Origin: Strigamia acuminata
Taxonomy: Eukaryota
NCBI GenBank assembly: GCA_949358305.1
Contig: OX442314.1
Coordinates: forward strand, 5,704,001 to 5,768,000
Length of the DNA: 64,000 nucleotides
Direction of reading: 5' to 3'
The position numbers and the translations under genes were made by a program. Below, piece by piece: positions 35,138-64,000 of the stretch. Positions within the stretch are counted from its first letter, which is position 1. Each line of letters opens with the position of its first letter. Below the pieces are notes generated by a model that did not search any database, was not told where the DNA came from, and saw only the letters and a program-made list of their open reading frames with translations.

Positions 35138-35379
35138 GCATCCAGACCAGACCAGAAGACGTGTTCCAGAGTCATCTTGACCACGCCGTCCCGATTTCAG
35201 TCACGATTCGAATTTTGTGTGCCGTGTAACCTGCAAAAGCTAACACGTGTCAAACAAACGCGAAGTTTAATTTTATTTTGTCAAAAGTAAAGTTTAGAAG
35301 TGTTTCTTGTTGAAAAGTGTATTATATTCGTCTTCTTTATAAATTAAAGAATTAAAATCGTCAGATTTTGAATTTTTTT

Positions 35380-36861: not shown

Positions 36862-37456
36862 CATGATATGATACACAAAGATTCCCCGATTATAGTGTAA
36901 ACAGAAAATCCTCTTCTAAAAATCATGACCTCTCTTCTAAAGAAAAGGAGGACAAAATATAAAGTTAAAATTAACAATTCTCGAAAAGTAATATTACAGT
37001 ATTAAAAGACAACTAGTTTAAATTAAAATTAGTCAATTGTACAAAGAATACCAAGTGACTCCGGTCATGACAATTAAGGAGGACATTTTGATTCTTAAAT
37101 TGTCAACTCTTATCATCTAAAAGCTATTTATTGTATATTTATAGCGATACATCTGACTAGGCATATGAAATAAATATTTTGTGATAACACAAATGATGAT
37201 TTTATGTATGACGAAAGTTTCTTCAAAAAGAAGACTTGGAAATAAATTCTGGACTTGAATTTAGGCTATTAGAAAAGATTATTTCGGCAGAAATCCAGAA
37301 CTTAGATAATTCAAGTTAGTTTATGTAAACTCAAATTCGAAATTGGAAGTCACGGTATCTCCAAGATACATCAAGTCCGAAAATAGCATTTATGCTAATT
37401 AGGAGAATAACGAAAACTCTATAAAATATTATATAGTTGTGTTATTAAGGGGGATG

Positions 37457-42500: not shown

Positions 42501-43588
42501 GACCTTCAGCAGAAAAAATCGTTAAATGTATCTACGACGTGGCGTTACGTTACGGATTTCCACGTAAAATGATATCCGACAACGGACCCCAATTTATCTC
42601 GAAAATTTGGGGTAAGTTTTGTGAGAAATTCGGGATTGTGGCGTCACATACTTCGACCTACAATCCCAGAACAAATCCCGTTGAGCGACTCAACAGGGAC
42701 ATTAAATATGCACTAAGTATATTCACTGACATCCACAATAAGTGGGATGAATACTTGAGGGAGATCGCGTTCAGCATACGAACAACAGTCTCGAGGACGA
42801 GAGATTTTTCTCCGGCCTACCTCAACTTCGCCCGGGAGCTACGAGTGCCTTGGGACCCACGAGTGGCAGAGTCAGTAAATGTGGTGGACCCCGAGAAACC
42901 ACATGAGTACGTGTATAAATTGGAGCAAACCATCTCCAACACGTACAAGCACATGATGGCGCACATTTTTAACATGCGCGACCGCATTTTACAAGATAAA
43001 AGCGGTGGAAAATTCGTGAATTTCGAGATTAATGATTTAGTGTGGAAGGACACACACATCCTCTCAAATGCAGCGAGAGGAATCACCGCCAGCTTGGCCG
43101 ACAAAAGAGACGGTCCGTATGTGATCATCGGCAAGCATGGCGGTAACGCGTATAAATTACGTAAGCTCGAGGACAATACCGAGCACAAATCGATCCAGGT
43201 ACGAGAGTTAACTCCGTACATTCCGGAATTCCCGCAAGAAATGTGGGCCAAGGGCCAAGTCAAGTCAAAAACTGACGGCCAAATCGTCGATATGTTCGCT
43301 GGCGAGTCGGAAAAAGCACCGCCAAGTGACAACGAGGAGTATTTCGACGCCCCTTCACCACCGGTAAACGAGATAGTTGAATCCGTTCCGGATCCAATTT
43401 TGGTCGGGGGGGAAACAGGAGAAACTCCTGAAACAAACACAAAAAACACGGATAAAAAAGAAAACAGTAATGAGGAGGTACAGACACAAAAAACAACAAA
43501 AAATATCGTACCTGTCTCGACTCATCACCTGCGGCTTCGTAGAAGTAATCCGTTTATAAAAGACGGAAAGGTCGTAGGAAAGGAGTAG
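39467..43588 (+). CDS. pol: Element B Pol (PR-RT-RH-IN), intact frame
   Basis: LLDSGAD, YLDD, TDAS, HHCC, DDE and GPY motifs; strong similarity to A Pol. Confidence 0.97.
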   Translation, partial: RVSAGGEEITSRPSAPFMKKKGLNKGFDKPPPVKEMGSDIANAQIQDRANNALQVITANAEAEAEEPNLLLEELPQVVEDTEEFRVFMCNVAVEYTSRLCMLPMTIEREKIMGLLDSGADRSFVSEDIVASLGLTDKIKGVNKNVRLKTANGMARPKGVILLTMEWLGGVEQHPFLVLPTCDRIFLLGLDLMASMEIQPNPITKSWNYIRNDRERPAIVVPPALIKEAADKTQWEKGLKKFVQDYNFKAFVAELQRDNVVETLVADAALELNEAAALRRVLLKYEGILSKKPGRTNRAIHEIKLTDNKPIRVAYKGMNPQKREIVQKMCQEMLDSGIVSEAQGEYATRVVLVMRPGSDPRLCIDYRPLNAVTEIDPIQMPSIESILRELSPFSWVTTMDLSKGYWQVEMRPEDKLKTAFYSPIGRLMFNVMPFGLVNAPSTFQRLIESVLGDILHQFVWAYLDDIVIASKTFEEHIEHIEQVLTRLAKAGLHVHPGKSKFCRKELAFLGYRIGVNGLAIGPEKIDAINRFPPPEDVKGVQRFMGMINFFGRLLPGLAEVAAPVTDLLKNENEFVWSNECTIAFNAIKRMLTEVGVMPLPDLNRPFILHTDASRVGLGAALLQTHVRDGVEQDLPCMFISRKLQGAEKNYNATELECLAVVWAIRKFRDYLEYTKFVVHTDHQALQWLMKLKEPAGRLARWQLELMACDLTIQYKPGKYNVVADALSRAPVSDPIDADDDGEDDSRIIYCPTSCHRWDLRKINEIPTASPADVKFCGFWTRLYQPAADNHPNAKKEFKLERRINDPLLSAFHAHVGRQMRSNPPTREEIIVQQKLDKKCQDRARFVLTGKYPPNLTRRQKRRYAHESIDYLLDDGLLVKHHPNHQDDLSESDTAVKVVIPASLIGRVLWLLHGHPLASHAGVSRTLYRATQLFHWTGMKKDIALFVHQCQRCQACKPRSKSPFETIFLGPYAPFDCLSVDVMGPKPVTGNKNAYIIVIMDVATRWPELYAVARPSAEKIVKCIYDVALRYGFPRKMISDNGPQFISKIWGKFCEKFGIVASHTSTYNPRTNPVERLNRDIKYALSIFTDIHNKWDEYLREIAFSIRTTVSRTRDFSPAYLNFARELRVPWDPRVAESVNVVDPEKPHEYVYKLEQTISNTYKHMMAHIFNMRDRILQDKSGGKFVNFEINDLVWKDTHILSNAARGITASLADKRDGPYVIIGKHGGNAYKLRKLEDNTEHKSIQVRELTPYIPEFPQEMWAKGQVKSKTDGQIVDMFAGESEKAPPSDNEEYFDAPSPPVNEIVESVPDPILVGGETGETPETNTKNTDKKENSNEEVQTQKTTKNIVPVSTHHLRLRRSNPFIKDGKVVGKE

Positions 43589-44068
43589 AAAACGTTACGA
43601 GTCGATGGCGACGCTGAAAAACAAAAAAATTGACCGATCGACAGCGCTAGCCATCAAAATCCGAGACTCTGAAAATTTCGCTAAGTCCAACAAAGCGGAT
43701 ATCGGTCGAATTCACGTCACGAGATGGCGTGGAAACGCGGGACCCGTAGCAAAATTATCGGCATGGGTCGGATACCGCGTGCAAAAGACCCCGTAGCAGC
43801 GATCGCGCACGGGCGTAGAAACAAAGGAGCCCCGTAGCGTAACATGCGCACGGGCTGTTGCGCACAGTCATAAGCACCTGGTTCTGGAGTAAAATTACCC
43901 AGAACCCACCACGATTGCCTCGTTTTCACCCGGACTTCCGCTAAAATCAGCTGATCGTCGTCCGCACGTGATACACAGCGAGTGCATTTTTAACCGAGTT
44001 TTTGATCCATTTTACGAGAAGTTTTCAAGTTTTTTAATCGTGGTCTGACTGAACGCGCAATCCTCACG

Positions 44069-44161
44069 ATGGATGAGGAAGGAGGGGACGAGGAAATGCT
44101 TGAAATACAGCATCATGACGAGAATTGGGACCCGGACATAAACGTAGTTCCACCCGATCAG
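44069..44161 (+). CDS. Element B ORF3, predicted exon 1 (31 aa, ...HDENWDPDINVVPPDQ)
   Basis: ATG at 44069; donor CAG|GTAGTA in phase 0; DENWD shared with A. Confidence 0.7.
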
Positions 44162-44962
44162 GTAGTAGTCGGCATCGCCGCACGAGATTTAGCTCCGTGC
44201 GGTCGAATTAAAGATACACTTGACTAATACTTGACATGAACGCTCTGCGTTCGAAATCGTGTATAATTATTATACTAATATCCACGATCGCGAGAGCGAT
44301 TGTATTTTCTCCTATTATTTGTCTTCAAGGACGCGATAGCAGACAAACTGTCGCCTCGCTCCTTGAAGATGACTCACGACAATTGACACGAACGAGACAA
44401 AGGAAACGAGCTTTCTTTTTATATTCCAGAAATGGGAATAATTTATTGGATGGATTTTGAAAGAATTTATAGAACGTTGTTTCTATTTTTATTTGCTATT
44501 TTATTTGCGAATTTTTTCCCGATGACACTAATTTATTATAGATTCGTTTTTTAACTCGACTTTAACTCCGAATTTTTGGAGTTATTATTAGACAAATTTA
44601 TTTCTTTACAAGTTAATTCACGACAAGAACATTTGTTTACATGTTCTAAAATTGTTATTGGAGATTTTCACGAACGATTTCGCGAATTTATTGGTTTAAA
44701 TACAAATTTACAGTTTAATTTTAAATTAAGCAATCCGAAGAAAAATTTCCGGATTAATACGCTCGATTCCGTCTCGTGGTTATCATTGGACGTGAACCAG
44801 ATGTGCCAAGAAGACTCTTTTCTTCCTGACAAGGACGAATCAATGAACAGGAATAGGACTCGACGAGCGGTCGCACGTTTCAGCGACGTTCCTCGAGCCC
44901 ACCCCCTATTTATCTCCGTGTTATTGGCGATTTCATTAATTATTTTGTTTCCATCATTGCAG

Positions 44963-47827
44963 ATGGAGCTCCGAGACACATGGGGAGCGCTCAGCCCCGC
45001 ATGCATAGTGCGAGCGGGCATATATCGAGGCGTACTGCCCGATTTTCTGCGCCGCTGCTTTGGCGAAGATGCGAAGCCATACCGCCTGCGCGTATTATTT
45101 TCGCGCGCCCTCGCCAAGCGTTGGGTTAACGATTGTACACTCCTGGACGCGTTCCCGGAGTCGGTGCGAAACGTCGTCGCTGCAGAGCTCGCTCGCATCG
45201 ATGACCCGAAGTCACCAATCTTCCACCCGGCCCTGTCGAGCCAATACTCCGGCAGGCCGGCGGAGGAGCATGTGTTGTTCGCGTGGCAAGCGGCCGAGAC
45301 CGAGGAGGCCCGCGAAGAAGTGTATCAACACTACCGCCAGCAGCTAATCGACACTGCGCCGGCGGTTGCAGAGCGGATTTTGCAAGACGACGGAATGAGC
45401 ACCGCCGATATACATCTGTGGTGCGAGCAGATTCGGCAGGGAGAAGTTACGCCACAGTGGCGACCGAGAATGGGGATTCTCACGTCACAAGCTGAAATGT
45501 GGCAACTCCACTATTTGGGAATTCTCGGCCCCAAATATAATTTCCCAAGGAAGCGCAAGCGCTCCAAGGGAACCGGGGGCAGCGAATCGCGCTCCCCGGG
45601 ACGGTCGAAGAAACAGTGCGTCGAACAGCACTCGACCGTCAACGATGGAGCGGGAACGTCAGCGCAGCCACCGCGCGACCCCGCGAATTACACCAGACCA
45701 AGGGTGTTCGTCAACCGTCAGATGAAAGACGGTAAAGAGACTCGAGAAGTCTGGATTTCGGGTGACGAAGAGCGAGTCTCTCGTCCCCGTGTCGGCAGAC
45801 ATCCGCTAACTCATCGTGAGCAGCGGAAACGAGACCGCAAAGAGCGGTATTTCGCTCGCTGCGAGGCGCGAGGAATTCCCCTTCCCGAACACGCTCTCAA
45901 AGCAATCGAAGCGAAGGAAGCGAGAGAGGCACGATCGAAGTCGAGTGGCCGATCTTCCGGGGAGCGTCGCGTCCTAGCGCCAGACACGCGGGACCTTCGC
46001 GAGATCATCACCCAGATGAAACGCAAGAAATTGTCTCGTTTCGACCCCGCGATGCAGTTCGCTCGCAAGATGGGCGTCGTCGAGCATGGTACCGTGATTC
46101 CACACGAAGTGGCACGGTGGTTAAGCGAATATGTCAATTCGCGACCGCGTGTAGAAAACGCGCCTACGGCCGTCGTTCCACCGACGAGTACTGTAAGCCA
46201 GCTCCCGGCACTCCAAGTCACGCCGACTGGAGTGCAAGCGACGCTGCCACCGCCAACACAACAGTCTTTGACGTTGCTGTTGCCGACGCAGTCATCAACG
46301 TCGCAACCGTTGCCAGCACAGCAGTCCCTGACGCTGCCGCCGCCGACACAGCCGCTGCCGCCGCCGACGCAGCCCCCGCCGCCGCCGCCGATGCCGGGTT
46401 CGAGTACTACGCCGAACTTGGCCGTCGACGACTCGGTGATGTTGCCCGTTCACCAGAGCATTGCGCGGGAATGCCATAACGCCCGCTTCGGAGAATATTA
46501 CCCGAGCAAGGCAAGACACGACCGCACCGCGATGTGGTATGAACAGCGTGACGAAAACGCACGGCTGGCTCGAGAAGCAGCCAATCCGTCGATCGAAGAG
46601 CTCTTGGCCTTCGCATTTGTGATGGAGGACCCGAGGGCCGCCGCCGCTGCTCTGCAGGGCGCCGACGTCACTCAGCGCCATTTCATCGAGTGGGGGATTT
46701 CGATGATGCGGCACCACTCGCGCGCGTTCGCTGCAGATCCTGATCGCAGCAACCCTGTAAATCGGCGCAGTCTACAGCTGGCTTTGACGAAAATCATGGT
46801 CCAGTTATTGACCCCCTCGCTCTTTGGGGTCGGACGACAAGCGATGGCCTGTTGGTCCGTAGTCGACAGAGAGGGTGTGCAGATACCTCGCGCACTCGTT
46901 GGGGAATGGAGCGCCATTCTCCCCAACCCGGCGATGACTCGCTTCGAGCTGACCCGGGACGTGGTGAACCCCGAATGGGAGGGGTATAAGTTGCGGAGCA
47001 TGGCCTTCCGCCACGCCGTTACCACGTGGGAGCCAACACCGTCAGCGCAGTCACACGCAATGATGGTCACGAGTGAAGAGCCGATGGAGAGCGACGCCGC
47101 CTCTTCGACTGCTTCACGTGGAGCCCCAACTCCACCTCCGCCGCCGCCACCGATGCCACCAGCGGCGACACCACAGACACCCGTCCTATCAAATGCGGCG
47201 GGTAAGCCCAGACGCTTGTTATGTCGGACGCCACCAACGATGTCCGCCGCTCGCCAGAGCCTGACGCCTCCCGCAGCCCAACAAGCGCGGGAAGAGACTG
47301 TCCAACAAGCGGTAGTTCCGAAGAGCGCCAAGCCAGCGAAAGCGGCGAAGCTTCAGACGAACTATTATGAGAAGTTGTGTGACGAGTTCTCTCAGCTGTC
47401 GATGACGACGGCGACGCGCAAATTCATCCTCGCGCAGAGAGACAAGGGGAAATCGGTATTCGTTTGGCTACACAACCAGGTGCGCCAGACCACCGATTTG
47501 ATCCTCCATCAGCGTTTGCTGAGGGCCCACCGTGCGCCTCGAACGGCCGCGGAGGCGAACGCGATCCGGCACACCAATTCCGGGTTTTCGGCGTTCATTC
47601 CGCGGGTTTGGCTGCATGAGAGGAGACGTGCCCCGTACGAGCCAGCCGGCGGCCACGCATTGTGCTTCATTTCCGAGCACGAGGACCCCCGCGACCAGTC
47701 TTCAGCCTTGGTTGGAGATCTGGTTTTGCCGCCCGGCGTTGTGCCGCCCGGCGCTGAGCCGCCCGTCCCTGGAGTGAGTTTCGCCCAGGCGATGGATCCA
47801 GCGTCGGGTCCCAGCAAGAAGGATTGA
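44963..47827 (+). CDS. Element B ORF3, main exon; uncharacterised non-Env protein (~985 aa spliced)
   Basis: Acceptor TTTCCATCATTGCAG|ATG at 44962; homology to A ORF3 begins exactly here. Confidence 0.8.
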   Translation: MELRDTWGALSPACIVRAGIYRGVLPDFLRRCFGEDAKPYRLRVLFSRALAKRWVNDCTLLDAFPESVRNVVAAELARIDDPKSPIFHPALSSQYSGRPAEEHVLFAWQAAETEEAREEVYQHYRQQLIDTAPAVAERILQDDGMSTADIHLWCEQIRQGEVTPQWRPRMGILTSQAEMWQLHYLGILGPKYNFPRKRKRSKGTGGSESRSPGRSKKQCVEQHSTVNDGAGTSAQPPRDPANYTRPRVFVNRQMKDGKETREVWISGDEERVSRPRVGRHPLTHREQRKRDRKERYFARCEARGIPLPEHALKAIEAKEAREARSKSSGRSSGERRVLAPDTRDLREIITQMKRKKLSRFDPAMQFARKMGVVEHGTVIPHEVARWLSEYVNSRPRVENAPTAVVPPTSTVSQLPALQVTPTGVQATLPPPTQQSLTLLLPTQSSTSQPLPAQQSLTLPPPTQPLPPPTQPPPPPPMPGSSTTPNLAVDDSVMLPVHQSIARECHNARFGEYYPSKARHDRTAMWYEQRDENARLAREAANPSIEELLAFAFVMEDPRAAAAALQGADVTQRHFIEWGISMMRHHSRAFAADPDRSNPVNRRSLQLALTKIMVQLLTPSLFGVGRQAMACWSVVDREGVQIPRALVGEWSAILPNPAMTRFELTRDVVNPEWEGYKLRSMAFRHAVTTWEPTPSAQSHAMMVTSEEPMESDAASSTASRGAPTPPPPPPPMPPAATPQTPVLSNAAGKPRRLLCRTPPTMSAARQSLTPPAAQQAREETVQQAVVPKSAKPAKAAKLQTNYYEKLCDEFSQLSMTTATRKFILAQRDKGKSVFVWLHNQVRQTTDLILHQRLLRAHRAPRTAAEANAIRHTNSGFSAFIPRVWLHERRRAPYEPAGGHALCFISEHEDPRDQSSALVGDLVLPPGVVPPGAEPPVPGVSFAQAMDPASGPSKKD

Positions 47828-48862: not shown

Positions 48863-50875
48863 AAGTGTGTGGATTGTTTCGGATATTTCAACCAGTAGAA
48901 TTATGGATATTTTGGACCAGATTTTCAAGGAAAAGCATGTGAAGTGCACCAGATGACTTCACAAACCTTTCAACTTCTTGAAAACATCATTTTTGAAGAT
49001 TTTCTTGATTTATTTGAATTTTTGAATTTTTTTTTGAATTTATTCATTGAATATTATTGTAAACTAGCTTAGTGTTGTGTTAGCATTTTACTCACCTAAT
49101 TATAAGAGCGCTACTAATCTGCAAACATTGAACCTCGTTTGTGTGTAATTTATGTTTTGAGCATTTCCACTGGGCAGTGGATTTTTTTTTAGTGAAAATA
49201 GTACTTTTTCAACATTAATATTTTTATTTTTATAAAGAGTTAATTTTTTAGTAAATATATTGGATTAAATTAAATTAAATTTAATAAATTAAATAAAATA
49301 TGTTTTTTTTTGTGAATATATTAAAGTAAGTTAATTTTTTTGTGAACATATTAAATTAATATTTTTTAAATAAATGAATGTTTTTCTGTAAATATCAAAA
49401 AATACATGAGTGCTATTTAGTAAATATTTTTTTAAAAAAATGCATGCTTTTTAACAGATTTTAAAACATATTTTTTATATATGTAAAAATGGATAAAATA
49501 AATCATTAAAAACTAGGTAAAAATCATGAAAAACTGGGTGAAAATCGTAAAAAATCGTGAAAAACAAGATAAAAATTGTGAAAACCTCGGTAAATATCGT
49601 GTAAAATCGTGAAAAACGATAAAAATCATGTAAAATCGTGAAAAACTGGGTAAAAATCGTGAAAGCCTCGGTAAAAATCGTCAAAAACTGTAAAAATCGT
49701 CAAAAATCGTCAAAAACTGGGTGAAAAGTTTTGAAAAGCTTGTAAAAAATCATGAAAATAAGCAGATTATGATTTTTCAAATTTCGATTATCATCTGATG
49801 ATGTAAATTGCATCATTTCCTGTGACTGTTAAGTCAAATCAGTCAAATCAGTCAAATCAGTTGTGACGATTCTACTTTTGGGCTAATTTATTAGTCCTTT
49901 TGAGATAGATAATTCGGTTTATACAAGACGTTGCTAAGTTTAGCAACAACCTAACCGAGATAAGCTACGGAAGTCTTTACCAACATGAATATGTGATCCA
50001 ATAGAAATAACTTACAGTTTTAGTGTGATATAACATATTTATTAATAAATATTACTGATAACAAAGATGGGTTCTTGACGCGTGTAAACGGGCGGCATCA
50101 ACTGGTTGAGGATCCGGGCGAAGCCAGAGGGATACGGCTGACTTGCGGCATCGTCACAAATATCGCTACGGAGACGTGTTTGGTCCGCAGCTCGAGTATC
50201 TAATAATGCGAAGAGTCCTTCGCATAAGTGGGAATATTCAGCAGAATATTCCATGTTCCAAATGAATAAAGTAAAATAATTAGTGGAATACAACAAATGA
50301 ATTGTTGTATAAATATTAATTGGGCGGGGACCGTCACGACAATTGAGAGAACGTCGCGGGAGTTGGTGAGACTCCATCCGCCAGCATGCCTTACGACGAC
50401 AAGATCTCGTGATCAGGCGCCGAGTATTTAATTGTGTGCTTTAACTCGCTATCGGTGGTACCAACCACCAGGCAAACATTTCTATGGACTTACCGGGTTT
50501 AAAAGATATTGCCAATACAGGATTACCAATGCCCGAGTAATTTGTTTAACACGACATATTTTATATATCGTTCACGGGTTACTAACCCGGAGGGTACAAT
50601 GGGGCGGGGACCGTCACGACAGTCGAGAGAACCATCGCGGGAGGATTTAACTCCTCCATCCGCCAGCATGCCTTACGATGACGGGATCCATTGATCGAGC
50701 ACCGGGTAAAATATTAATCGGCCACTGCCAATGGATTACCATTATCCAGGTAGTTATTTATCGCAACATCTTGAAGATATTACTCACGGGCTACCAACCC
50801 GGCGTGTCACCTGTGCATTAGGCCTTTACCGACTTTTAACGAACGGAAGGACCAATCGTAGAAAGACGGGAACCT

Positions 50876-53800
50876 TATGACGGTTTACAATGGCTATAAA
50901 TGCCTATTTTCTATCAAGAAAGCGCTGTTGCGCCAATATGATGGTATTTTTACAATATTCTGTGTAAAACTGATAAATGTCTAGAATAAAGTCATTTATG
51001 ATGTTTCAAATACAAAGATGTTCGTTTATTAAGAATAAACACTAATTTCCACATGATACTAAAGTATCACGGCATAATTACGAAGATTCGTCTGCTAAAA
51101 CCCGCATTTGTCAATGCTCCATATTGCCACTAGATGGCGCGATCGCAATTAGCGATAAATTCGAATACGAACTTGAAAACCTCATGATTAAATATAAACG
51201 TATATTTAATCAAGTGAATAAATTGTGTTAAATATTAATATAAATATATATTAAATATCTGACATTGTTAAATACAATGTAACTTCCATTTCTGCGGGAC
51301 AGAATGTTTAGCGATCAATCGGTCAACCGATCAATCTGATTGGTGGAACCCATTTCCGGTCCTGGGTATCCAGTTCCGGTTGTAACAAGGATTAGCATAA
51401 TTTGCATAAATGCTCCTCCGTATCCACTTCCGGTGATACGGGATTGGAGGGATTCGTGGAACCCATGTTCCAATTGGATGACTGGATTAATCCTTAAATC
51501 CAGTCAGGTTATATAAACCCAAACAATCGGCCATTCCGCAGCTCTGTTTGATTATTTTCTGTTTGGTATTGTTACTTAAGAAATATGATTCGTTGTTCAC
51601 GTAAAAAACCTTTTGGTTCTTTGTTGATTTATTCGCAAAGAACCGTTGCATGATTCTACAGAATCATGCCACCGCCGGCAATTGAAGTCGAAGTGCTGGG
51701 ATTATTATGTTGCATAAATGTTACAGTCTACGGTTGCGACGCCGAAGGAGAACCCGCCGTTGTGCAATTCAGTATCCTCCGGACAGGACCAAGTTGTCTT
51801 TTTCGGTATGAACGTATTCCGTTACCACGAGTAGCATCGGTATTGTTGAGAATTGGTTCCTTCACCTGATGGTGCCAAAGCAGTCTGTTTTACAGTAACC
51901 ACGAGTAGCACCAAGTGTTTGGCAAGCTGATTCTCATGGTATTCGATGCCAAAGTAGTCGGTCTATTATTAGTACCGCGAGAGATAAAACTGCTGTGCGG
52001 AGCCGCGAGCTATCGACCCCTGTGTACGTGGTGCCGTCAATCGCTAGACGAACGACCGTGCTGCGACGCCGGGGACGCTTGATACCGTTCTGCATGGCAA
52101 GGCGTATAAATCTTTCGACGGCAATTGTGTGTTGCGACGGGAAGCCTAATCTTCATTTTATTTATAACAGCTAAATATTAACTTGGCGACAAGTTGATTA
52201 ACCAAGTCAGAAGACTTAACTACGATCACGATTACATCAAGACGCAAATGTAACCGATAAGTTGACGACAACTTATCCACAAAATATCTGAATAAGAATT
52301 CACAACGATATGAATTAAGTATAATTCATAAGCGGAATATTGATAAGTAAATGAATACATTTACTTACACCAATATCCTCCCAAAGTTGTGGCGGTGCAG
52401 ACAAAGTCAACCGCAATGCTCAGATCATTCGATTTATCGACGTGCGATAATTTACACAGCGAACCAAGGAAACCAGCGAAGCCATATCGGACTCCAGGAC
52501 ACAGCCATCCGGCTTAGATGACATCTGTAAACCAGGTCGAGCGATGGGGAAACCGCTCCCTTATCCCAGACACGTAATGATATTATTATAAAGCCATTTG
52601 GCTAACTTGTTGTATAGTTTAAATAGTCAGTTAACTTGCCAAATGTTGGCATTAGTCTTATGTATAATTTAGCTCACTGCATATTGTTTGCCAACAATAA
52701 ACTGTCTTGTATTTATCTCGTATTGTATTCACTGTTTATTTATTGCGATCTCTTCCCGGTACCATTGTTAAATGGGAGTTGTGGTCGTCACCGTCACACG
52801 TGGAGGTCCCACCGAGATTAGGTTGCAATTAAATTCGATTGAATTGCAACAGTGAATATTGGAGATAAATATTTAACTAAAAGATTTAAGTTAAAAATAG
52901 ACAGATTAAATTCTCAGTTTATATTTCCATGTGAAGAAGTTAAACTGATGAAATAGAAATGTGTAGTAGATTTTCCTTCATTATTTTCGTTCGAAGATTT
53001 AAGGGATTTCAAAGACTACCACCTAATCTCACACGTGGAGGTCCCACCGAGATTAGGTTGCAATTAAATTCGATAGAATTGTAAAAGTGAATTTTGAGAT
53101 AAATATTTAACTAAAAGATTTAGTTAAAAAACAGACAAGTTTCAAACCATGTTTATTTTCTTGAGAAACACCAAAACAGTCCTTTAACTAGGAATTTCGG
53201 AAGTTATAGACCTATCACACGATCACTGAAATAGGTTGCAAATTAATTCGATCGAATTGCAAAAGCGAATCTTGAATCCGATATTAACTAAAAAATTTTA
53301 GTTAAAACAGACAAATAGATTTTCAGTTTATATTTTCATGTGAAAAGTTAAACTGACGAAATGGAAACGTTTAGTGAACTCTCTTTACTATTTTCGTTCG
53401 ACAATTTAAGGAATACGAAGTATTTTAAATAAGAAATCAAAAAAGTTTCGAGTGAAATAAGAATACAGATATTTTTTTTTCGAAGTTTGTTTTATTTCGA
53501 AAAGCTAAAAACATACAAGTTTAGAAGGCGGACTTCTTACGAATTTATCTTTCCACCTGAAAAGTTAAAACGAAGAAAACACCGCAACTATTTGGAAATA
53601 TTTACAAGAAATTAAGTTTCTTGTAACTGTACGTCGACACCGATAGCCAGCGACCACGCGCCATAGCAATACGCGTCGATCTCCGTATCAAACGCAGCAG
53701 GGAAGCTACTCAAACCTTCAATGCAAGGTGCGAACGAATGCTTGGAAATTATGGCGGACAACAGATAAAAGACAGCGGAGAAATGTTACAGAAGGTTCGT

Positions 53801-56800
53801 AGAGATTTATTTAAGTGTCGCGAACTAATTTTTCCACTGCCATCGGTACCGAAGATAATTTAGTTGTTGAAGAAAAACAACACACTCCATTTCGCAGAAA
53901 AGATTTGCAAATCGAAATGAATATTACCTTTATTTGAAGGAATTAACTATTTTCACAAAAAGTACATTTTTTCCTTCGGGACAATGGAAATTAAGAAAAT
54001 ATAAAATGGCGGCGAATGAAGTTGCCGACCACGTAGAATAGTATTTTTTACATTGAAAGTTACGAATCACGATAAACGCTTTCCCTCGGAAAAGTAAAAG
54101 GATTTCATTCAATCTTTCCTTTCGGAAATTTAACAGTGTTTTAAGTTTCCAACGATATTTGGGTCTCCCAAATTTTGAGAATTTCTAAATGAAATTTAGC
54201 TGTTTGAAAAACAACGAATATTTTTAGTAATCTAATCGGACATTTTCCCACATGATTTCTTAAAACCGGAATAACAAATCCATTTGTGGCTATGAACTTT
54301 GCCACATGAAATATTTACGGAGCGAATATTTTTTGATTGGATTGAAGCTTTAAAATCAGATAGCTGATTTAAACGAAGAAAATAAGTTTCAAAGTAATTA
54401 TTTTTCTTTCGGAAAAATCAAATAAATCACCGCTGATGAAAAGTTGTATTTTTCCATTCGAAAAAACTAAGAATTGCACAAGATTTATCTTCTATTTTGA
54501 ACATAGATTTTATTCGGAAAAGGAAAGATTCTAGATACATTATTTTTCTCTAAAAATTAAGAATTTAGTCAATTTTCCTAAAGGTTAATGGAATGTCATC
54601 ATATATTTCGTTCGTAATTTACGTGTTAAAGTTTAATCAGAAAAACGATTGAATATGTTTTATTTGCGATAAGTAAAAGAAAGGTTCTTTAAAAATGGAA
54701 TTTCGATGCAAATCCCACAGTAAAGGGAATGTTATGTGTGAGCAATTAACGAAAAGTTGGAATAACTTCATTTTATTTCATTCAAAAGTAGTTGTGAAAA
54801 ATCAATTTCAAATATTTTTCAAAGAAAAATTATTTTTATCGGAAAAAAGTAATTTACATGTCCTCGCGCGGACCGAGTAGTAAACTGCTTAATTGTGACA
54901 TCGATACTGTTATTGTGTCACGTGTTATACGGAATTCCAAACCAGTGAATTACGAATTTTGGCGCGATAGGAATAGAAGTTTGACAGTGAAAGTTCTCCA
55001 GATTTGTCTTTTCATTTGAAAAGTTCAAATTGAGGAAATGCTGCAGCAGATGAAGGTATTTACGACAATTGAGATTTAAATATTCTTTCATTCAAAAGAT
55101 AAAAGATCTCTGCAAAAACATCTCGTTATTAGAGATAAGGGGGACGAAAATTATTAAAACGAATAATCAAAGACACGTCCTTCGTAAATATCGCAAAGGA
55201 ATAACTAATTGTGAAAACAATTGTCCGCTCAGGAAAAGTGGAATTTAGCTAGATATTTTCTTTCGAAAAATCACAGCAATTGTCATCAAAAAAGAAAGAT
55301 TTGATGAATAATTTTTACCCAAAAGTCTAAAGGATTGTCGAATAGTTTTCTCCCGAAAAACAAGTACACATTTGTACCAATAACTTTATCGTTTAAAGTA
55401 AAATTTCGAATATTTTCTTTTGGAAGATTAGAGAATTAGATAATTTTTCTCGCAAAACAAATTTAAAGAATTTTAACGAATTTTTATTTGTTAAAAAAAT
55501 TTGTTAAAAAAGGGGGAGATGGATGGTGAAAATTTATTTTTTCACACTCGAAAAATGGAATTTAAACCCGAAAAAGTAAAGACTTGGTCAAATTATTCTT
55601 CCTATTGGAAATGAATACACAATGTTGGGAATCGAAAATAGATTTCAATTACAAAGGAATGATTATTTGAACGATAATTGAATAAGAATAAGAAAAATTG
55701 AGAGTTTGAGAAAACTTTATTAAAACTGTGGTTGTAATGATATTACACACTAAACGGAATAATCAAAGAAAAATATTTTTTGAAGAAAAGTTATTTAATT
55801 ATTTGGATTGGTAAAAATCCCAAAGTTCAAGAAGATTGAAGTAAGTTTATTTTATTTTCATTTGAAAAATACAATATTTTACGAATGTCTTCCCGAAGGA
55901 ATTTTATTTTATCGGTAAAATTGAATCTCGAAGGGAACGGACTTAGTAGAGAACTACTAAATAGATGTAACGTCCTTTATACCATTGGCCGACACTAACA
56001 TCCGCCAATCAGAAGTTGGGAGATCTAGGGATCCCCAGCCCCCTGCTATTAAAGGAGGACCAGATCAGATACTGATCATTCGCATCCAGACCAGACCAGA
56101 AGACGTGTTCCAGAGTCATCTTGACCACGCCGTCCCGATTTCAGTCACGATTCGAATTTTGTGTGCCGTGTAACCTGCAAAAGCTAACACGTGTCAAACA
56201 AACGCGAAGTTTAATTTTATTTTGTCAAAAGTAAAGTTTAGAAGTGTTTCTTGTTGAAAAGTGTATTATATTCGTCTTCTTTATAAATTAAAGAATTAAA
56301 ATCGTCAGATTTTGAATTTTTTTATGGCTCAAAAACCATTGAATATGATCGATCCAAAAGGAAATAATAAGCAGACAAACTTAAATTTAAGTTCTGTACC
56401 ACTTGGCGATCAAACAGAAAAGATTCCCGATCATTTTACTCTGTATTGTAATCGTCATGGACTGGATAAAACCAAGTTTAAAAATATAATCGAAGCTTCA
56501 GACTATGTATAAGCTAGGAACTGGCGAGATCGTACCCAATCTCAATCTTCACATCAAGATCCAGTACGGAATCCACAAACATACAGCCGAAACTTAGTGA
56601 ATCAAGATTCTCATACTATGTTTCAAACATCCAGTAGGGGATCTAAGTTAGAAAAGTTTAAACCACCTAATTCGGTAGATAAGGGGGAAGAGAATTATAA
56701 ACCTAATAATTCTCATCCAGAGAGTTCGTTAACTAACCAGTCGGTTGTTCAGAACAAATTAAAACTCGTTTACAATCGAGATCAGCTAATTTCAGTTCGA

Positions 56801-59800
56801 TATGCTAATCCAGCTGAAGCACAACGATATGTGGCTAGCCTTAATCTGTCGATTAACCTACCGCTATCAAAAGAATTGGGAACCGTAAACAAAAGTTTTG
56901 GGCCACCAATATCAACGCAAAGGAAAGATATTCGGACTCCAAACAAACATTTACAGTCAAATAACGTACAACAACGTGCCCGATCGCCGATCACAAACTC
57001 ATGTTTGCGGACGTATGATTTGTCTACCAAGAAGAGTCCCCAGCCAAGACAATTCTACCTAACGCCCATTTCAAATCGAAAAAAGGTCAAGCAAACTTTT
57101 CCCTTGAAAAAGTATTACCAACACGATAATGAGAATGATTTTAAACCTAAAAAAGAAAGTTTTTTGACTAACCCACGGGAGATCCGGTATCAATTCGAAC
57201 AGTATTGTAAACAATACCAGTTAAATTCAGCTGAATTTAAAAATATAAACGAAGCGCAACAATTCGTATTTCGAAATCAATACCGTAACCAACGACTAAA
57301 ACCCGTCCCAGTCGTCAATCTGACGGAGATACAACAATTTGCGTCTGGAAAGCAACCCTGCAATATCCAGAATAATTCATCTCAACGAGAGGAATTAAGA
57401 ACTTCAAAAAAGCGTTTTCGGTCACCAAGTCCAGCTGGTGATGAAGAAACTTCAAGTACAAACCAACATGTTCAAAAACTGACTGAAAACCCAGGTTTCC
57501 AATCATCAGTTCCACGACTTAGAGTCAAATATAGATCCCCTCGTTTGTTGCGGGATTTCACAATTCCAAATATGGGTCCTTTCCACGTATGGTTTTCCAA
57601 TGAGGGTCCCATTCATGTATGGTTTTCCAGAGATGACCTAAAACAAAAAGTTGGGTCGTCACGGTCATTTACACTGCCAAGTCAGTACACTGTATGTAAC
57701 TGCCCAAAGGAAAAACGTCGAAAGAAATCAGTACAGCAGGCTGAGAGATCTCGGAAATTCGCAAATATGCGAGCTCAATATTTAGCAAAGAATCATGTTG
57801 ATTAACATGATATGATACACAAAGATTCCCCGATTATAGTGTAAACAGAAAATCCTCTTCTAAAAATCATGACCTCTCTTCTAAAGAAAAAGGGGACAAA
57901 ATATAAAGTTAAAATTAACAATTCTCGAAAAGTAATATTACAGTATTAAAAGACAACTAGTTTAAATTAAAATTAGTCAATTGTACAAAGAATACCAAGT
58001 GACTCCGGTCATGACAATTAAGGGGGACATTTTGATTCTTAAATTGTCAACTCTTATCATCTAAAAGCTATTTATTGTATATTTATAGCGATACATCTGA
58101 CTAGGCATATGAAATAAATATTTTGTGATAACACAAATAATGATTTTATGTATGACGAAAGTTTCTTCAAAAAGAAGACTTGGAAATAAATTCTGGACTT
58201 GAATTTAGGCTATTAGAAAAGATTATTTCGGCAGAAATCCAGAACTTAGATAATTCAAGTTAGTTTATGTAAACTCAAATTCGAAATTGGAAGTCACGGT
58301 ATCTCCAAGATACATCAAGTCCGAAAATAGCATTTATGCTAATTAGGAGAATAACGAAAACTCTATAAAATATTATATAGTTGTGTTATTAAGGGGGATG
58401 TATGACGGTTTACAATGGCTATAAATGCCTATTTTCTATCAAGAAAGCGCTGTTGCGCCAATATGATGGTATTTTTACAATATTCTGTGTAAAACTGATA
58501 AATGTCTAGAATAAAGTCATTTATGATGTTTCAAATACAAAGATGTTCGTTTATTAAGAATAAACACTAATTTCCACATGATACTAAAGTATCACGGCAT
58601 AATTACGAAGATTCGTCTGCTAAAACCCGCATTTGTCAATGCTCCATATTGCCACTAGATGGCGCGATCGCAATTAGCGATAAATTCGAATACGAACTTG
58701 AAAACCTCATGATTAAATATAAACGTATATTTAATCAAGTGAATAAATTGTGTTAAATATTAATATAAATATATATTAAATATCTGACATTGTTAAATAC
58801 AATGTAACTTCCATTTCTGCGGGACAGAATGTTTAGCGATCAATCGGTCAACCGATCAATCTGATTGGTGGAACCCATTTCCGGTCCTGGGTATCCAGTT
58901 CCGGTTGTAACAAGGATTAGCATAATTTGCATAAATGCTCCTCCGTATCCACTTCCGGTGATACGGGATTGGAGGGATTCGTGGAACCCATGTTCCAATT
59001 GGATGACTGGATTAATCCTTAAATCCAGTCAGGTTATATAAACCCAAACAATCGGCCATTCCGCAGCTCTGTTTGATTATTTTCTGTTTGGTATTGTTAC
59101 TTAAGAAATATGATTCGTTGTTCACGTAAAAAACCTTTTGGTTCTTTGTTGATTTATTCGCAAAGAACCGTTGCATGATTCTACAGAATCATGCCACCGC
59201 CGGCAATTGAAGTCGAAGTGCTGGGATTATTATGTTGCATAAATGTTACAGTCTACGGTTGCGACGCCGAAGGAGAACCCGCCGTTGTGCAATTCAGTAT
59301 CCTCCGGACAGGACCAAGTTGTCTTTTTCGGTATGAACGTATTCCGTTACCACGAGTAGCATCGGTATTGTTGAGAATTGGTTCCTTCACCTGATGGTGC
59401 CAAAGCAGTCTGTTTTACAGTAACCACGAGTAGCACCAAGTGTTTGGCAAGCTGATTCTCATGGTATTCGATGCCAAAGTAGTCGGTCTATTATTAGTAC
59501 CGCGAGAGATAAAACTGCTGTGCGGAGCCGCGAGCTATCGACCCCTGTGTACGTGGTGCCGTCAATCGCTAGACGAACGACCGTGCTGCGACGCCGGGGA
59601 CGCTTGATACCGTTCTGCATGGCAAGGCGTATAAATCTTTCGACGGCAATTGTGTGTTGCGACGGGAAGCCTAATCTTCATTTTATTTATAACAGCTAAA
59701 TATTAACTTGGCGACAAGTTGATTAACCAAGTCAGAAGACTTAACTACGATCACGATTACATCAAGACGCAAATGTAACCGATAAGTTGACGACAACTTA

Positions 59801-60323
59801 TCCACAAAATATCTGAATAAGAATTCACAACGATATGAATTAAGTATAATTCATAAGCGGAATATTGATAAGTAAATGAATACATTTACTTACACCAATA
59901 TCCTCCCAAAGTTGTGGCGGTGCAGACAAAGTCAACCGCAATGCTCAGATCATTCGATTTATCGACGTGCGATAATTTACACAGCGAACCAAGGAAACCA
60001 GCGAAGCCATATCGGACTCCAGGACACAGCCATCCGGCTTAGATGACATCTGTAAACCAGGTCGAGCGATGGGGAAACCGCTCCCTTATCCCAGACACGT
60101 AATGATATTATTATAAAGCCATTTGGCTAACTTGTTGTATAGTTTAAATAGTCAGTTAACTTGCCAAATGTTGGCATTAGTCTTATGTATAATTTAGCTC
60201 ACTGCATATTGTTTGCCAACAATAAACTGTCTTGTATTTATCTCGTATTGTATTCACTGTTTATTTATTGCGATCTCTTCCCGGTACCATTGTTAAATGG
60301 GAGTTGTGGTCGTCACCGTCACA
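50876..60323 (+). mobile_element. Element D: second copy of the C family (9448 bp)
   Basis: 1923-bp LTRs (50876-52798, 58401-60323); TSD ACCT; PBS at 52801 and 53036; interior nearly identical to C. Confidence 0.95.
56324..57805 (+). pseudogene. Element D copy of the cargo ORF with a nonsense mutation
   Basis: AAA>TAA at 56510-56512 relative to copy C. Confidence 0.85.
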
Positions 60324-61819
60324 ACCTGCGTGGGCAGTTTACAACAGCCATCCTGCAGCGGACTGAGGCCAGTTAGCTGAGGGACCTACTTTCATTTAGC
60401 AAGGTCGTACTGTATACGACCGTTATATTAAGCCACCGTACGAAATCCTACTGTCCCGTAGAACAGCTGGCTAACGTTACGGGGCCATTTCATGCGAATG
60501 CATGTCTATTACTGGAGTTGGCCTTCCCGAAAAGGCCCTACAACAACAATAACAATAGTAATGAATACCGATTGTGGAGAGCTGAGGTGGCCTGATGTGT
60601 CGATAAGAAAGTGAGATCAAACGATAACAACAATTCAATTACAGACATTTACAGTTATCAAGCCAGGGAGATAGTGGGTGAGAAACTGATGCTTATATAG
60701 TTCTGTAGAACTACTAGATTGGCGACAGCCAATCAGCGTACGAATCGGCGGATTCGTGGGTCACTAGGCCGGACCTAATATATGACTATGTCCAGATGGG
60801 CCCAGTTGGGGTCCGGAAGGGTCCGATTGGTTCCCTTCGACAGGTAAGTAATGTGGATATTGATTCGATAGAATCAACATTGTCAAGTAAATAATACTTA
60901 GTTTATATCGAATAAAATAGTTATATTTTATTCACCGTGTCTAAATAATTATTTATCACACTTTTAGTTTTATCGAGTTTGAATTACGCGCGTTTGGTAA
61001 ACAGCGCCATCTATTGTGAACATTGATAAATACGGATTTGTAATCATCACACATCCCCCGGTGACAATCATAGAGTTTACCAACTTTTTAATTGTCATTC
61101 TTAATGTATAAGAAATGTTCACCTAATTCTATCGAATTAATCCACTTGGTAAGTATTTTATTAAACTTAATCACGTTATTTCTTTCAGAAACTTCGTCAC
61201 CCGATTAGACTAATCGGCTTCCCTGTACAACGCAACTCCCGGTTGCTAAGCGACGGAAATGAACTCGTCCGAACATGGATACATGTTCGAGAAAATTAAT
61301 TTCGGTAGAAATTTTTATTTTCTCCGTCAAATAAACTTCATCATAGCTTATTAACTATCCAGATGATCAAGTAAAATAAATTTATGCAAAATTTTATTTA
61401 TTGGAAAATCTAAACTACTAACTTTTTATTACGATTGTCATAAAAAATTAACGAATCTCAACTTGAAATTCTTCAACGCTTCGATCAAAGCAAAAAACAA
61501 ACACAATTTTCACAAATAATTATGAAAAATAAACTAAACAATCACACATATGTTAATATGATTAATTCAAATAAACATCCAAATTGAATTCGAAAAACAA
61601 TAACAAATTAAATTGAATCCAATTTTTAAATTAAACTATACTCGTTTGAGCATTTAATGATTAGTTCAAGATCTTGAAACAAACAAACACAATACTCGTG
61701 GGAATATTTCGTAATTGCAAAAAACACAACAAAACACTTGGAGTATTTTTAGTCATAAAAATCTCCACTCGGAAAAATAACGAACGTTAATTTGTCCCTT
61801 CTAATCTTTCTTTTCGACG

Positions 61820-63307
61820 TCAGTCGAATCTTTCTCTTCCTTCGGCAGAAGTCAGGAGATCGGACTCTTCAGTCGCTTCAGTCGAAGCGGCAGAAAACAC
61901 AGCTTCTACGGAAGCTTCCATCTCTTCCGGACTTGGAGGCGGAAACGGCAGATCCTCGAGTAACTCTGCCACGAAATCGACAACGGAAAGCAATTCCTCG
62001 GCGTCTTCAAACTGTGCGTCATCCGACGTTTCAGACTTGGAAGCTGGAGGGGCGCTGGACACGTCGGTTACGGCCGCTGGAGGATCCTCCACGGGTTTAG
62101 CCGATCCTTCTACAGCCTGTCGAAGCTTACGGGCTCGCCCTCGTGCCAAGATGTTGGTTCGTTGAACCTTGGCAATTTCCTTTGCTCGGTCGAGCGTAAG
62201 ACAGCCTCGTCCTCGTGACATCGCTCTTGGTCGAACGAATTCCTCTACAAGCTCGCTTCCGACGCTTTCAGCGGCCTGGACAGTTTCAGTTGAAACTTCG
62301 GAGCTCTCGGACGGCGGCGGCGACTGTCGAAGGGGTTCGACTCGGACACCGGCGTTGGCCTCAGCGCGGGTCCAGGTGAGGAAGCGCGGGTCGATGTAAA
62401 CCGCTTCGCCACGACTATTCAGGAAAAGACGGCACTTTGGGCAGTGAGCCCAACATCGCTTCTCATTTGGCTTAATGCCTTTCACCACGTGGGGCTGAAC
62501 CTCCTTGCGCCACGGCTCCGAACGCGGTCGCGTTTTCCTTCCACGGCAATTTGGACAACGCATTAAAGAAGAACCTGCGGATGCACCGCAGCACCACCCA
62601 CAGCCGACGCAAAATGGGCAGATCGTCTCTGTGGCCTGGTCAGTCACGATGTTATCGTGAGGTATTCCGGCTGCCATGTCACGCTCGCACTGTTCTTTGC
62701 GCAGGCGGGCCTTCTCGTCCTTCTTTCTCGCCTTGTTGGCGGCTCGGTACTCGCGGTTGCGAGATACGGGCTCCGAAAAACGCAAAGCGCCCGGCGGCGG
62801 CTCATTCCATCCGTACTCTGATGCCGAAGATTCAGCGCCGGCAGGGAGACTCGCAACAGACGCTGATTGTCCTGCCAAAGTCGGTGCAGTCGCATTTGAC
62901 GTGTTGGCAACTGTTGGCGCCACGCTTGCAGTTGGCGGCCGGAATTCTGGTGAATGCGGGGCCAACGGGACGTTGATAACGTTCGCGGGTGGATACGCCA
63001 CTTGGGCCAACGGGGCCAATTGCGCCGACTCATAAACGGTTGGCTGTGCAGATGTGGATGGGGCCTGCATCATCGCATTTAAGTCGAGCGGGAGTCCGTC
63101 CGGATGGACGCTCAGCCAATTTAGCGTTGCTAATTGCAGTGGCGTCAGGGCATACATGGAGGCTGGTGCCGTTGGTATCGGTTGGGCCCTCAAATATGCA
63201 CGTTCGGCCGAACGGCGTTGCTCGTCACTAGACGAGGTGGACGAGCTGGAACTTTCATGACGGTGACGTCGATGACTCCGTTTCGAACGGTGTTTACTAC
63301 CTCCCAT
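61820..63307 (-). CDS. Element E accessory ORF (~495 aa) with a Cys-rich putative zinc-binding region
   Basis: ATG at 63307 directly after a TTTGCGTCTGCAG acceptor; CPFCVGCGWCC..CPNC and CWAHCPKC motifs; sense to element E and upstream of its PPT. Confidence 0.75.
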   Translation of the reverse strand: MGGSKHRSKRSHRRHRHESSSSSTSSSDEQRRSAERAYLRAQPIPTAPASMYALTPLQLATLNWLSVHPDGLPLDLNAMMQAPSTSAQPTVYESAQLAPLAQVAYPPANVINVPLAPHSPEFRPPTASVAPTVANTSNATAPTLAGQSASVASLPAGAESSASEYGWNEPPPGALRFSEPVSRNREYRAANKARKKDEKARLRKEQCERDMAAGIPHDNIVTDQATETICPFCVGCGWCCGASAGSSLMRCPNCRGRKTRPRSEPWRKEVQPHVVKGIKPNEKRCWAHCPKCRLFLNSRGEAVYIDPRFLTWTRAEANAGVRVEPLRQSPPPSESSEVSTETVQAAESVGSELVEEFVRPRAMSRGRGCLTLDRAKEIAKVQRTNILARGRARKLRQAVEGSAKPVEDPPAAVTDVSSAPPASKSETSDDAQFEDAEELLSVVDFVAELLEDLPFPPPSPEEMEASVEAVFSAASTEATEESDLLTSAEGRERFD

Positions 63308-64000
63308 CTGCAGACGCAAATAAATTATTTTATTAAAAATAATTCCACTCTAAATAATCATTCCTTGAGTCCAAAGAATTAAAACGTATTGTTCGCAACG
63401 AAAATACACAACTCGAGTTATTTATAACCCCTAACACGTGACACTAATGAGTCACATTCCCCTTGTGTTTATGACACGAAAATGGACTCGCCTGACAGCG
63501 ACTTTCATTGAAAATCGCAACTTGTTGATTTTTCAAAAAGAAAAAATCCCCGTAGTTTCTATAAACTATTTAATTCCATCTTTGAATATCAAAAATAAAC
63601 TTCGTATTAATTAATTAACACTTAGTCTAATAAATATCTCACATTGAAAATTCATCGTTAAATAATTTATCCAAGCCTCGACCGCGACTTGATTTAAATA
63701 ATTAGTGCCTACGTACTTAAATTTCAATAATTCATTATCGGAATTTAACACAAACTATTCGACTGAATAGTTAAACTTCCAGAGTGATTTAGTGCCAATT
63801 CACGTTTATAATACACGTGAACTTTTTATCGGGACGCCGATATTTCAATTGTTGCGAACAATTTTCCAATTCATTGGTCAAAGAATATATGTGAAAACTA
63901 CTTACTGTCGGAAGTGAAGCTTTCCTTGTTTGAAGTGAGGACCGGCTAAATAAATTAGCGCTGAAGTTTTTCCGAAGTCGAAAAAGTGAAGAGGAGACGA

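What the first reader, a model, noticed from the sequence alone, without database searches (positions are those of the whole stretch)
61820..63905. Element E: a third, unrelated accessory gene, Cys-rich and probably spliced
Seen: a 495-aa ORF before the PPT with CPFCVGCGWCC-x10-CPNC and CWAHCPKC clusters, basic patches and an acidic tail; no TM or signal peptide. Its ATG directly follows TTTATTTGCGTCTGCAG, and a consensus GTAAGT donor lies at 63905-63900 (minus strand), giving a ~598-bp AT-rich intron, as in A/B. Inference: three LTR lineages here each carry a different non-Env 3' gene with separate expression signals, suggesting a recurrent accessory-gene slot; this one may be a zinc-binding regulator.
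Basis: partly seen in the sequence, partly recalled or inferred. Interest (0 to 1): 0.7.

Follow-up and report, generated by a model that had tools for sequence, protein, structure and literature searches.

The report
Zinc-finger third gene of gypsy retrotransposon
A jumping-gene family in this animal genome carries, just inside its terminal repeat, an extra 495-amino-acid gene whose copies preserve the protein and whose only detected relatives follow polymerase sequence in centipede gene models; it is predicted to bind zinc, is likely spliced, and likely regulates the element's own RNA in the nucleus.

Summary
A 495-aa ORF (63307-61820, minus) lies 769 nt before the LTR of a multi-copy element, E. 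It is a real gene: across E copies 34 of 40 listed differences in the Cys region are synonymous (0.24 expected). Its only relatives found are three gene models of the centipede Strigamia maritima (best E 2e-34); two join the domain behind gypsy pol pieces, and one such integrase groups with the window's elements A and B. So E's gene is most likely a non-Env third gene of that gypsy branch, unrelated to the gene A and B share. The conserved core is narrower than the quoted clusters: a DnaJ/anti-TRAP-like CxxCxGxG pair plus C207, H217, C239, C289, C292; C236, C240, C285, H288 are not conserved. Splicing is unproven: no RNA run was listed, the acceptor is convincing, the donor has a 20% chance rate. 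E's own gag-pol lies outside the window. Best guess: nuclear regulator of the element's unspliced RNA, like CERV or Rev (about 0.4). Non-Env third ORFs are known, and this scan noted Cys-rich ones in other genomes; this protein family was not found described.

The parts
61820..63307 (-). 495-aa third ORF of element E
   Evidence: selection; relatives
63194..63307 (-). Basic, then Ser-rich N-terminus (aa 1-38), candidate nuclear localisation region; similar start in centipede model P0122
   Evidence: local score 61, 2 of 1000 shuffles as high; NLS role inferred
62375..62734 (-). Conserved domain, aa 192-311: basic helix, C207/H217, CxxC pairs, terminal hairpin
   Evidence: 44-47% identity to P0121/P0122; helix about aa 185-212 is the only confident part of the model
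62534..62620 (-). CxxCxGxG-like pair (C230, C233, C251, C254): predicted DnaJ/anti-TRAP-type zinc site
   Evidence: four Cys invariant in 4 of 4 sequences; Pfam Anti-TRAP E 0.0019, 18.6 bits, cut-off 32; PDB DnaJ 1exk E 0.92
62432..62443 (-). CPKC (C289, C292): part of a predicted second metal site with C207, H217 or C239
   Evidence: kept in 3 of 3 sequences that reach it; pairing inferred
61823..62026 (-). Acidic, Pro-containing tail (about aa 428-495), not alignable to the relatives
   Evidence: 7 of 7 listed differences at aa 422-458 synonymous
63308..63324 (-). Candidate splice acceptor directly before the ATG
   Evidence: chance of TGCAG at that place 0.0004; no RNA
63900..63905 (-). Candidate splice donor GTAAGT
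   Evidence: chance of one or more in 693 nt 0.20; exon side ACA is weaker than CAG in A and B
63308..63905 (-). Candidate 598-nt intron, 31% GC, 8 ATGs, TATAAA at 63426
63906..64000 (-). Candidate upstream exon, 43% GC, no ATG, open in the frame of the ORF for 31 codons; cut by the window end
61060..61819 (-). AT-rich 3' untranslated stretch with four AATAAA (61430, 61402, 61319, 61162)
61052..61059 (-). Short polypurine tract GGGGGATG, same as in element C
60324..61051 (-). First part of E's 3' LTR, starting TGTGAT
   Evidence: summed contig depth rises across 61071 (weak, not a copy number)
50876..60323 (+). Element D (copy of C) inserted into E's LTR with a 4-bp duplication
   Evidence: loose ends of other E copies at 60323 match the sequence beyond 50875
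50024..50875 (-). Second part of E's 3' LTR; end at 50024 or 49992 (both ATCACA); LTR about 1.58 kb
   Evidence: the end is inferred from the terminal inverted repeat only

Best explanation
The ORF is a selected, non-envelope accessory gene of a multi-copy LTR element that is likely a Ty3/gypsy retrotransposon; it is likely expressed from a spliced message and is predicted to make a zinc-binding nuclear protein that likely helps the element's full-length, unspliced RNA avoid splicing or retention and leave the nucleus, in the way CERV and Rev do. Steps: (1) shown: real ORF, kept at protein level among copies, placed before PPT and LTR; (2) shown for the centipede relatives, inferred for E: position behind gypsy pol; (3) inferred: splicing onto the acceptor before the ATG, from the donor at 63905 or one further upstream; (4) predicted: one C4 zinc site of DnaJ/anti-TRAP type and a second Cys/His site fold a compact core between disordered arms; (5) inferred by analogy: basic N-terminus gives nuclear entry and RNA contact, the core or the acidic tail recruits a host export or splicing factor, acting in trans. 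Steps 1-2 about 0.9, step 3 about 0.7, step 4 about 0.8; the confidence given is for step 5.
For: Selection: 34 of 40 listed differences synonymous at 62380-62730 (0.24 expected, crude pN/pS 0.06) and 16 of 21 over the ORF (0.30 expected). Relatives: P0121 E 2e-34, P0122 6e-32, P0124 4e-7, all Strigamia maritima models; P0121 has protease and integrase C-terminus, P0122 integrase H2C2, before the domain. P0121's integrase groups with A, B and P0023 at SH-aLRT 97 among 69 rows (quick tree). Five Cys and one His invariant in 4 of 4. In P0122 the model passes from integrase to a Met-Gly basic/Ser-rich start like E's. A and B, of the same branch, carry a phase-0 intron at the same place, homology resuming at the acceptor, yet both have 100% identical LTRs: they moved recently with the intron kept, so unspliced RNA has to be exported. 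No TM or signal. CERV is a 517-aa spliced LTR-element protein with a Cys loop needed for gRNA export (PMC10309623). A contig in both runs lacks 61402-63658, the whole ORF, which fits action in trans.
Against: No test of expression, localisation or RNA binding. No sequence link to CERV was tested directly, and its Cys spacing differs (C193, C195, C200, C269). The nearest motif, DnaJ/anti-TRAP type, binds proteins rather than RNA (recalled), and both hits are under threshold. A and B solve the same export problem with an unrelated protein or none, so the slot does not fix the function. The donor is weak evidence (0.20 by chance) and a TATAAA at 63426 allows an unspliced message (chance 0.49). 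The pol link rests on two automatic gene models whose DNA was not seen, with 82% identical third-gene parts, so they are close to one observation. Within E copies the lack of Cys changes is not significant (6 non-synonymous rows, P about 0.48). The ORF-less contig is one record per run and need not have moved.
Confidence: 0.4

Rival explanations
1. Anti-silencing or transcription factor: the protein binds element DNA or chromatin, or a piRNA/heterochromatin factor, and uses its acidic tail to keep the family transcribed (VANC-like or Tat-like).
For: Basic patches, predicted zinc core and acidic tail fit a transcription factor layout; acidic tail under selection. TE-encoded anti-silencing proteins exist (VANC, PMC12859917 passages); Strigamia methylates its TEs and a Copia family there captured an MBD (PMC6673714 passages). 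Unrelated genes in one slot fit an arms race.
Against: No DNA-binding family matched; the core is slow-evolving (44-47% to the centipede), less like a fast arms-race surface; VANCs belong to plant DNA transposons.
Confidence: 0.27
2. Protein-binding cofactor of the particle or integration complex: a DnaJ-type zinc finger that binds Gag, integrase or a host chaperone, or steers integration.
For: The conserved motif resembles DnaJ/anti-TRAP zinc fingers, which bind proteins (recalled). Accessory domains that steer integration are known in Strigamia Copia. Elements here are nested in each other.
Against: A separate gene with its own signals is less suited to targeting than a domain fused to integrase; the conserved basic/Ser-rich start suggests nuclear import; nesting is common in TE-dense regions.
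Confidence: 0.18
3. Envelope substitute for cell-to-cell spread, like Env or sORF2/FAST.
For: It occupies the env position behind an env-like splice acceptor; some lepidopteran sORF2 genes lie downstream of pol (10.1101/2025.03.14.642691 passages).
Against: No TM segment or signal peptide; 495 aa against about 70-115 aa; no Env family hit. An unseen upstream exon could add a signal, but not an anchor.
Confidence: 0.05
4. E is a non-autonomous element like C/D, or the ORF is a captured host gene or separate insertion with no role for the element.
For: E shares its PPT and a long 3' spacer with C; gag-pol not visible in the window.
Against: Strong purifying selection among copies; relatives only in TE-derived models behind pol; no host-gene relative among 1.84 billion representatives; no repeat ends or duplication around the ORF.
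Confidence: 0.1

Closest known systems
CERV of C. elegans Cer1 (PMC10309623; abstract, sections 6, 9, 15 and passages read)
   Same: About 500 aa, non-Env protein of an LTR retrotransposon, spliced message, Cys-rich candidate zinc loop, basic NLS-like motif, no homologues outside a narrow host group.
   Different: CERV has five exons, three sharing the gag frame, and H, M and G domains; Cys spacing CxC-x4-C-x68-C. E's protein is one long exon behind pol with CxxCxGxG pairs. CERV's function is tested; E's is not.
Non-envelope ORF3s of bdelloid rotifer LTR elements: GDSL, DEDDy, CC, TM (PMC5408684; passages)
   Same: Family-specific third ORFs behind pol, gained more than once in related lineages, described as separate spliced units.
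   Different: Those are recognisable enzymes or membrane proteins; E's protein has no family hit, no TM.
Plant and fungal additional ORFs between pol and 3' LTR: Grande GENE23, RIRE2, Retand, Boty (PMC7264820; parts 1-2 of 3 read)
   Same: Conserved orphan accessory ORFs, some nuclear, proposed to act like Tat or Rev.
   Different: Those orphan nuclear ORFs are antisense with their own promoter; E's is sense to the PPT and in an animal.
DnaJ CxxCxGxG zinc finger and Anti-TRAP (PF15777)
   Same: Two CxxCxGx(G/K) motifs 21 residues apart; both perfect in P0124.
   Different: Only one pair instead of DnaJ's four repeats (recalled), no J domain, scores under threshold, extra conserved Cys/His around it.
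Strigamia maritima UniRef models T1IMA5, T1IH97, T1IU31
   Same: True homologues of aa 192-311; two lie behind gypsy pol pieces.
   Different: Annotated only as retropepsin, polymerase or uncharacterised protein; the domain is not named.

Membership tests
Ty3/gypsy LTR retrotransposon (element E) | PPT followed by an LTR with TG...CA inverted ends | tested here: met
   right end ambiguous by 32 nt
Ty3/gypsy LTR retrotransposon (element E) | Dispersed multi-copy family | tested here: met
   6130 and 2018 contigs laid on 60000-64000, many at 90-99% (60000-60323 is D's LTR)
Ty3/gypsy LTR retrotransposon (element E) | gag and pol (PR-RT-RH-IN) in the same element | tested here: inconclusive
   Outside the window, no genome held; shown only indirectly for relatives P0121, P0122
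Ty3/gypsy LTR retrotransposon (element E) | 5' LTR, PBS and target-site duplication | not testable with these tools
   beyond 64000
Env / env-like fusion protein | Signal peptide and TM anchor | tested here: not met
   (hydropathy scan only, no dedicated predictor)
Env / env-like fusion protein | Match to an envelope family | tested here: not met
CERV | Exons shared with gag, five-exon message | tested here: inconclusive
   main exon is separate from gag; upstream exons unseen
CERV | Cys loop CxC-x4-C-x68-C and H/M/G domains | tested here: not met
   spacing; no CERV-like hit; no direct alignment to CERV was run
CERV | Required for export of unspliced genomic RNA | not testable with these tools
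   needs cells
DnaJ-type / Anti-TRAP zinc finger | Paired CxxCxGxG motifs | tested here: met
   (motif definition recalled; second motif ends in K in 3 of 4)
DnaJ-type / Anti-TRAP zinc finger | Score above the family cut-off | tested here: not met
   18.6 bits against 32; PDB DnaJ E 0.92
DnaJ-type / Anti-TRAP zinc finger | Same fold, bound zinc | tested here: inconclusive
   single-sequence models pLDDT 45 and 39
A/B third-gene family of this window | Sequence homology | tested here: not met
Spliced subgenomic gene | Junction seen in RNA | not testable with these tools
   no RNA holder listed

The most novel reading that the evidence does not exclude
An arthropod gypsy branch behaves like complex retroviruses: its sub-lineages exchange unrelated, intron-controlled regulatory genes behind pol, and E's is an undescribed two-zinc, DnaJ-finger nuclear factor that exports or protects the unspliced genome, a Rev/CERV function invented independently and kept from this host to centipedes.
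Probability: 0.3. Interest if true: 0.75.

Novelty: new variant of a known kind. Interest (0 to 1): 0.52.

Why it matters
How LTR retrotransposons with splice sites get their unspliced genome out of the nucleus, or past silencing, is worked out for few elements; CERV was the only tested retrotransposon export protein that my searches returned. Here is a small, strongly selected, unnamed domain with a defined conserved core, in a young high-copy family, beside a sister lineage with a different gene in the same place. That gives a direct test: localise the protein, measure zinc, find what it binds. It also shows that this domain is hidden in databases inside gene models labelled as polymerase.

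Tried and rejected
Whole genome: none held. Word-index homology searches: none for the whole protein or aa 170-325; both covered only 272-867 aa proteins, which is why the 905-, 942- and 132-aa relatives were missed. ESM Atlas: no usable hit, two leads at 0.76, chance level. PHROGs: E 0.045 at best. Metagenome contigs: 0 of 95 stretches; with the A/B integrase alignment 2 distant loci of 149 stretches, L001 without a related third gene in its short flank (L002 not examined). Viral contigs: 2 of 7 stretches passed tblastn but no locus was returned; exact DNA pattern 0; alignments 0 of 36 and 0 of 210. P0123 and P0125 are long Thr-rich repeat proteins scored by summed repeats: dropped as chance. 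PPR hits are the same artefact (about 4 bits a repeat); p300 hit E 0.11-0.7 not pursued. Homodimer with zinc: no verdict. No RNA holder listed; neither this nor the lack of a 63906^63307 joint among 15 of 19 DNA joints shown bears on splicing. RNA structure in the invariant block: z -0.59, rejected. Bacterial promoter scan and tRNA scan uninformative. A resemblance to the HIV Tat Cys-rich and basic region was recalled, gave no PDB hit, and two of the Cys it rests on are not conserved: rejected. A weak E/B3 match at aa 187-207 is chance. An overlapping plus-strand gene is excluded by 7-10 stops per frame.

Full report
Setting. The window is animal DNA (a DEG/ENaC exon at 6225-6620) filled with nested LTR elements. 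A (7806-20673) and B (25913-48862) are Ty3/gypsy elements with gag, pol and a third gene. C lies in B; its copy D (50876-60323) lies in the LTR of E. E runs on the minus strand from beyond 64000. No whole genome is held, so E's 5' part was not seen.

Observation. The 495-aa ORF, the Cys clusters, the charge pattern, the acceptor-like sequence before the ATG and the GTAAGT at 63905 are all as reported. The stop is followed by 760 nt of AT-rich DNA with four AATAAA, then GGGGGATG and an LTR starting TGTGAT at 61051. Contigs of other E copies continue from 60324 into the sequence found beyond 50875, so D split this LTR, which ends at 50024 or 49992.

A real gene. Two public runs, one study, hold the stretch as thousands of diverged contigs. 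Of 275 difference rows 40 were shown; 21 fall in the ORF and 16 are synonymous, against 0.30 expected. On 62380-62730, 40 of 43 rows were shown: 34 synonymous, 35 at third positions, 0.24 expected, no indel at 3% or more. The other five frames give 3, 3, 6, 23 and 1 of 40; the 23 is the antisense frame that shares third positions and has 9 stops. One row is in both sets, and rows can be shared by descent, so the p-values (1e-5, 1e-15) are a guide only. None of the 12 indels shown lies in the ORF; 57 were not shown.

Relatives. Word-index, Atlas, PHROGs, contig and PDB searches found nothing usable. The full HMMER scan with aa 170-336 gave 5 hits among 1.84 billion. Two are repeat proteins and were dropped. 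Three are gene models of the centipede Strigamia maritima, 44-47% identical over the core for the two long ones. P0121 carries protease and integrase C-terminus before the domain, P0122 an integrase zinc domain. In P0122 the model steps from integrase to a Met-Gly, basic, Ser-rich start like E's (2 of 1000 shuffles). In a quick tree of the integrase end (69 of 84 hits kept, 193 columns; the careful search did not finish) P0121 and the unnamed P0023 pair up and join A and B at SH-aLRT 97. So one gypsy branch holds a sub-lineage with the A/B gene and one with the E-type gene, and the two genes are unrelated. Limits: the models are automatic, their DNA was not seen, their third-gene parts are 82% identical, and the tree rows were chosen by likeness to B.

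The protein. Invariant in 4 of 4: C207, H217, C230, C233, C251, C254 and G237-W238, among others; C239, C289 and C292 are kept in E and both long relatives; C236, C240, C285 and H288 are E's alone. C230 and C251 open two CxxCxGx(G/K) motifs, the DnaJ pattern (recalled). Pfam Anti-TRAP matches there under its cut-off for E (E 0.0019) and P0124 (0.019); PDB DnaJ gives E 0.92. One C4 zinc site is likely and a second, from C207, H217, C239, C289, C292, is plausible. Single-sequence models were poor except a helix at about aa 185-212.

Splicing. No RNA run was listed, so it is untested. For: TGCAG right at the GC step before the ATG (chance 0.0004), eight ATGs in the upstream AT-rich stretch, B's acceptor likewise followed by ATG, and good comparative evidence for introns in A and B. 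Against: the donor is expected by chance 20% of the time, its exon side is weak, the 95 visible upstream bases have no ATG, and a TATAAA at 63426 allows an unspliced message, though that too is common by chance (0.49). I put use of the acceptor at about 0.7 and of this donor at about 0.5.

Mechanism. Not tested. A and B moved recently with their introns kept, so unspliced RNA must reach the cytoplasm in this branch. The closest tested precedent found is CERV, a 517-aa spliced Cys-loop protein that Cer1 needs for that (PMC10309623: abstract, sections 6, 9, 15, passages). E's protein is similar in size, lacks membrane features and has a conserved basic start, so I rank a nuclear RNA regulator first (0.4), anti-silencing or transcription factor second (0.27), particle or integrase cofactor third (0.18). 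It is not a CERV member: Cys spacing and gene layout differ.

Known or new. Family-specific non-Env third ORFs are published for rotifers (PMC5408684, passages) and plants and Botrytis (PMC7264820, parts 1-2 of 3); sORF2 can lie behind pol (10.1101/2025.03.14.642691, passages); Strigamia Copia captured an MBD (PMC6673714, passages); VANC is cited from a meeting report (PMC12859917, passages). Eight searches (listings only beyond the papers named) showed no description of this domain or of a Cys-rich ORF3 in a myriapod gypsy element. Subscription papers, supplements and Repbase were not seen and could hold one. Earlier notes of this scan report a Cys-rich third ORF in another animal-type gypsy element and antisense ones in fungi; none matched by sequence or place. 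I had reached CERV before that note; the fungal notes led.

Verdict. Observation confirmed, interpretation partly supported. A real, selected, unnamed zinc-finger-like accessory gene in a known slot: new variant of a known kind, interest 0.52.

Noticed in passing
window 16343-19806 and 44069-47827 (+): The third genes of A and B are homologous along their length (32%), with no Pfam hit. Each has a short acidic coding first exon sharing DENWD and a phase-0 intron (560 and 801 nt); homology resumes at the acceptor, 44 codons before A's first ATG. Better comparative splice evidence than E has.
   Followed up: partly
window 62574-62629 (-), aa 227-244: No listed difference among copies, including 0 of 9 fourfold sites against 17 of 32 elsewhere (gap P about 0.006; 3 rows unseen). 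Possibly a nucleotide-level signal inside the Cys block, or an effect of contig breaks; no RNA structure.
   Followed up: partly
window 29938-39370 and 50876-60323: C and D: 9.4-kb elements with 1.9-kb LTRs, no gag or pol, duplicated PBS-like stretch (tRNA-Gln type, recalled) and a 493-aa ORF without Pfam hit; D's copy has a premature stop; 0 of 4 differences synonymous. C sits at the end of B's gag, D in E's LTR.
   Followed up: partly
window 61402-63658: One contig in each run joins 61401 to 63659 with 7 other letters: an E derivative lacking the whole ORF.
   Followed up: no
window about 16050-16068 and 43672-43690: A and B share a short motif (GAAAATTT-GCTAAGTCCAA) about 90 nt behind pol, a possible internal promoter or cis element; E has only a faint echo near 63970.
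   Followed up: no
window 6225-6620 (+): Exon of a host DEG/ENaC channel gene (Pfam ASC, E 1.6e-13): the host is an animal, and A lies about 1.2 kb from it.
   Followed up: partly
window 50318-50802: E's LTR holds an internal duplication of about 210 nt at 72-79% identity.
   Followed up: no
window 12004-15963, 39518-43588: A and B pol have no listed relative above 46% in RT-RNaseH (best 120 shown of 7961 candidates scored); both elements have 100% identical LTRs and 4-bp duplications.
   Followed up: partly
window 7419-7734, 20754-21839: Short inverted and direct repeats, MITE-like, on both sides of A.
   Followed up: no
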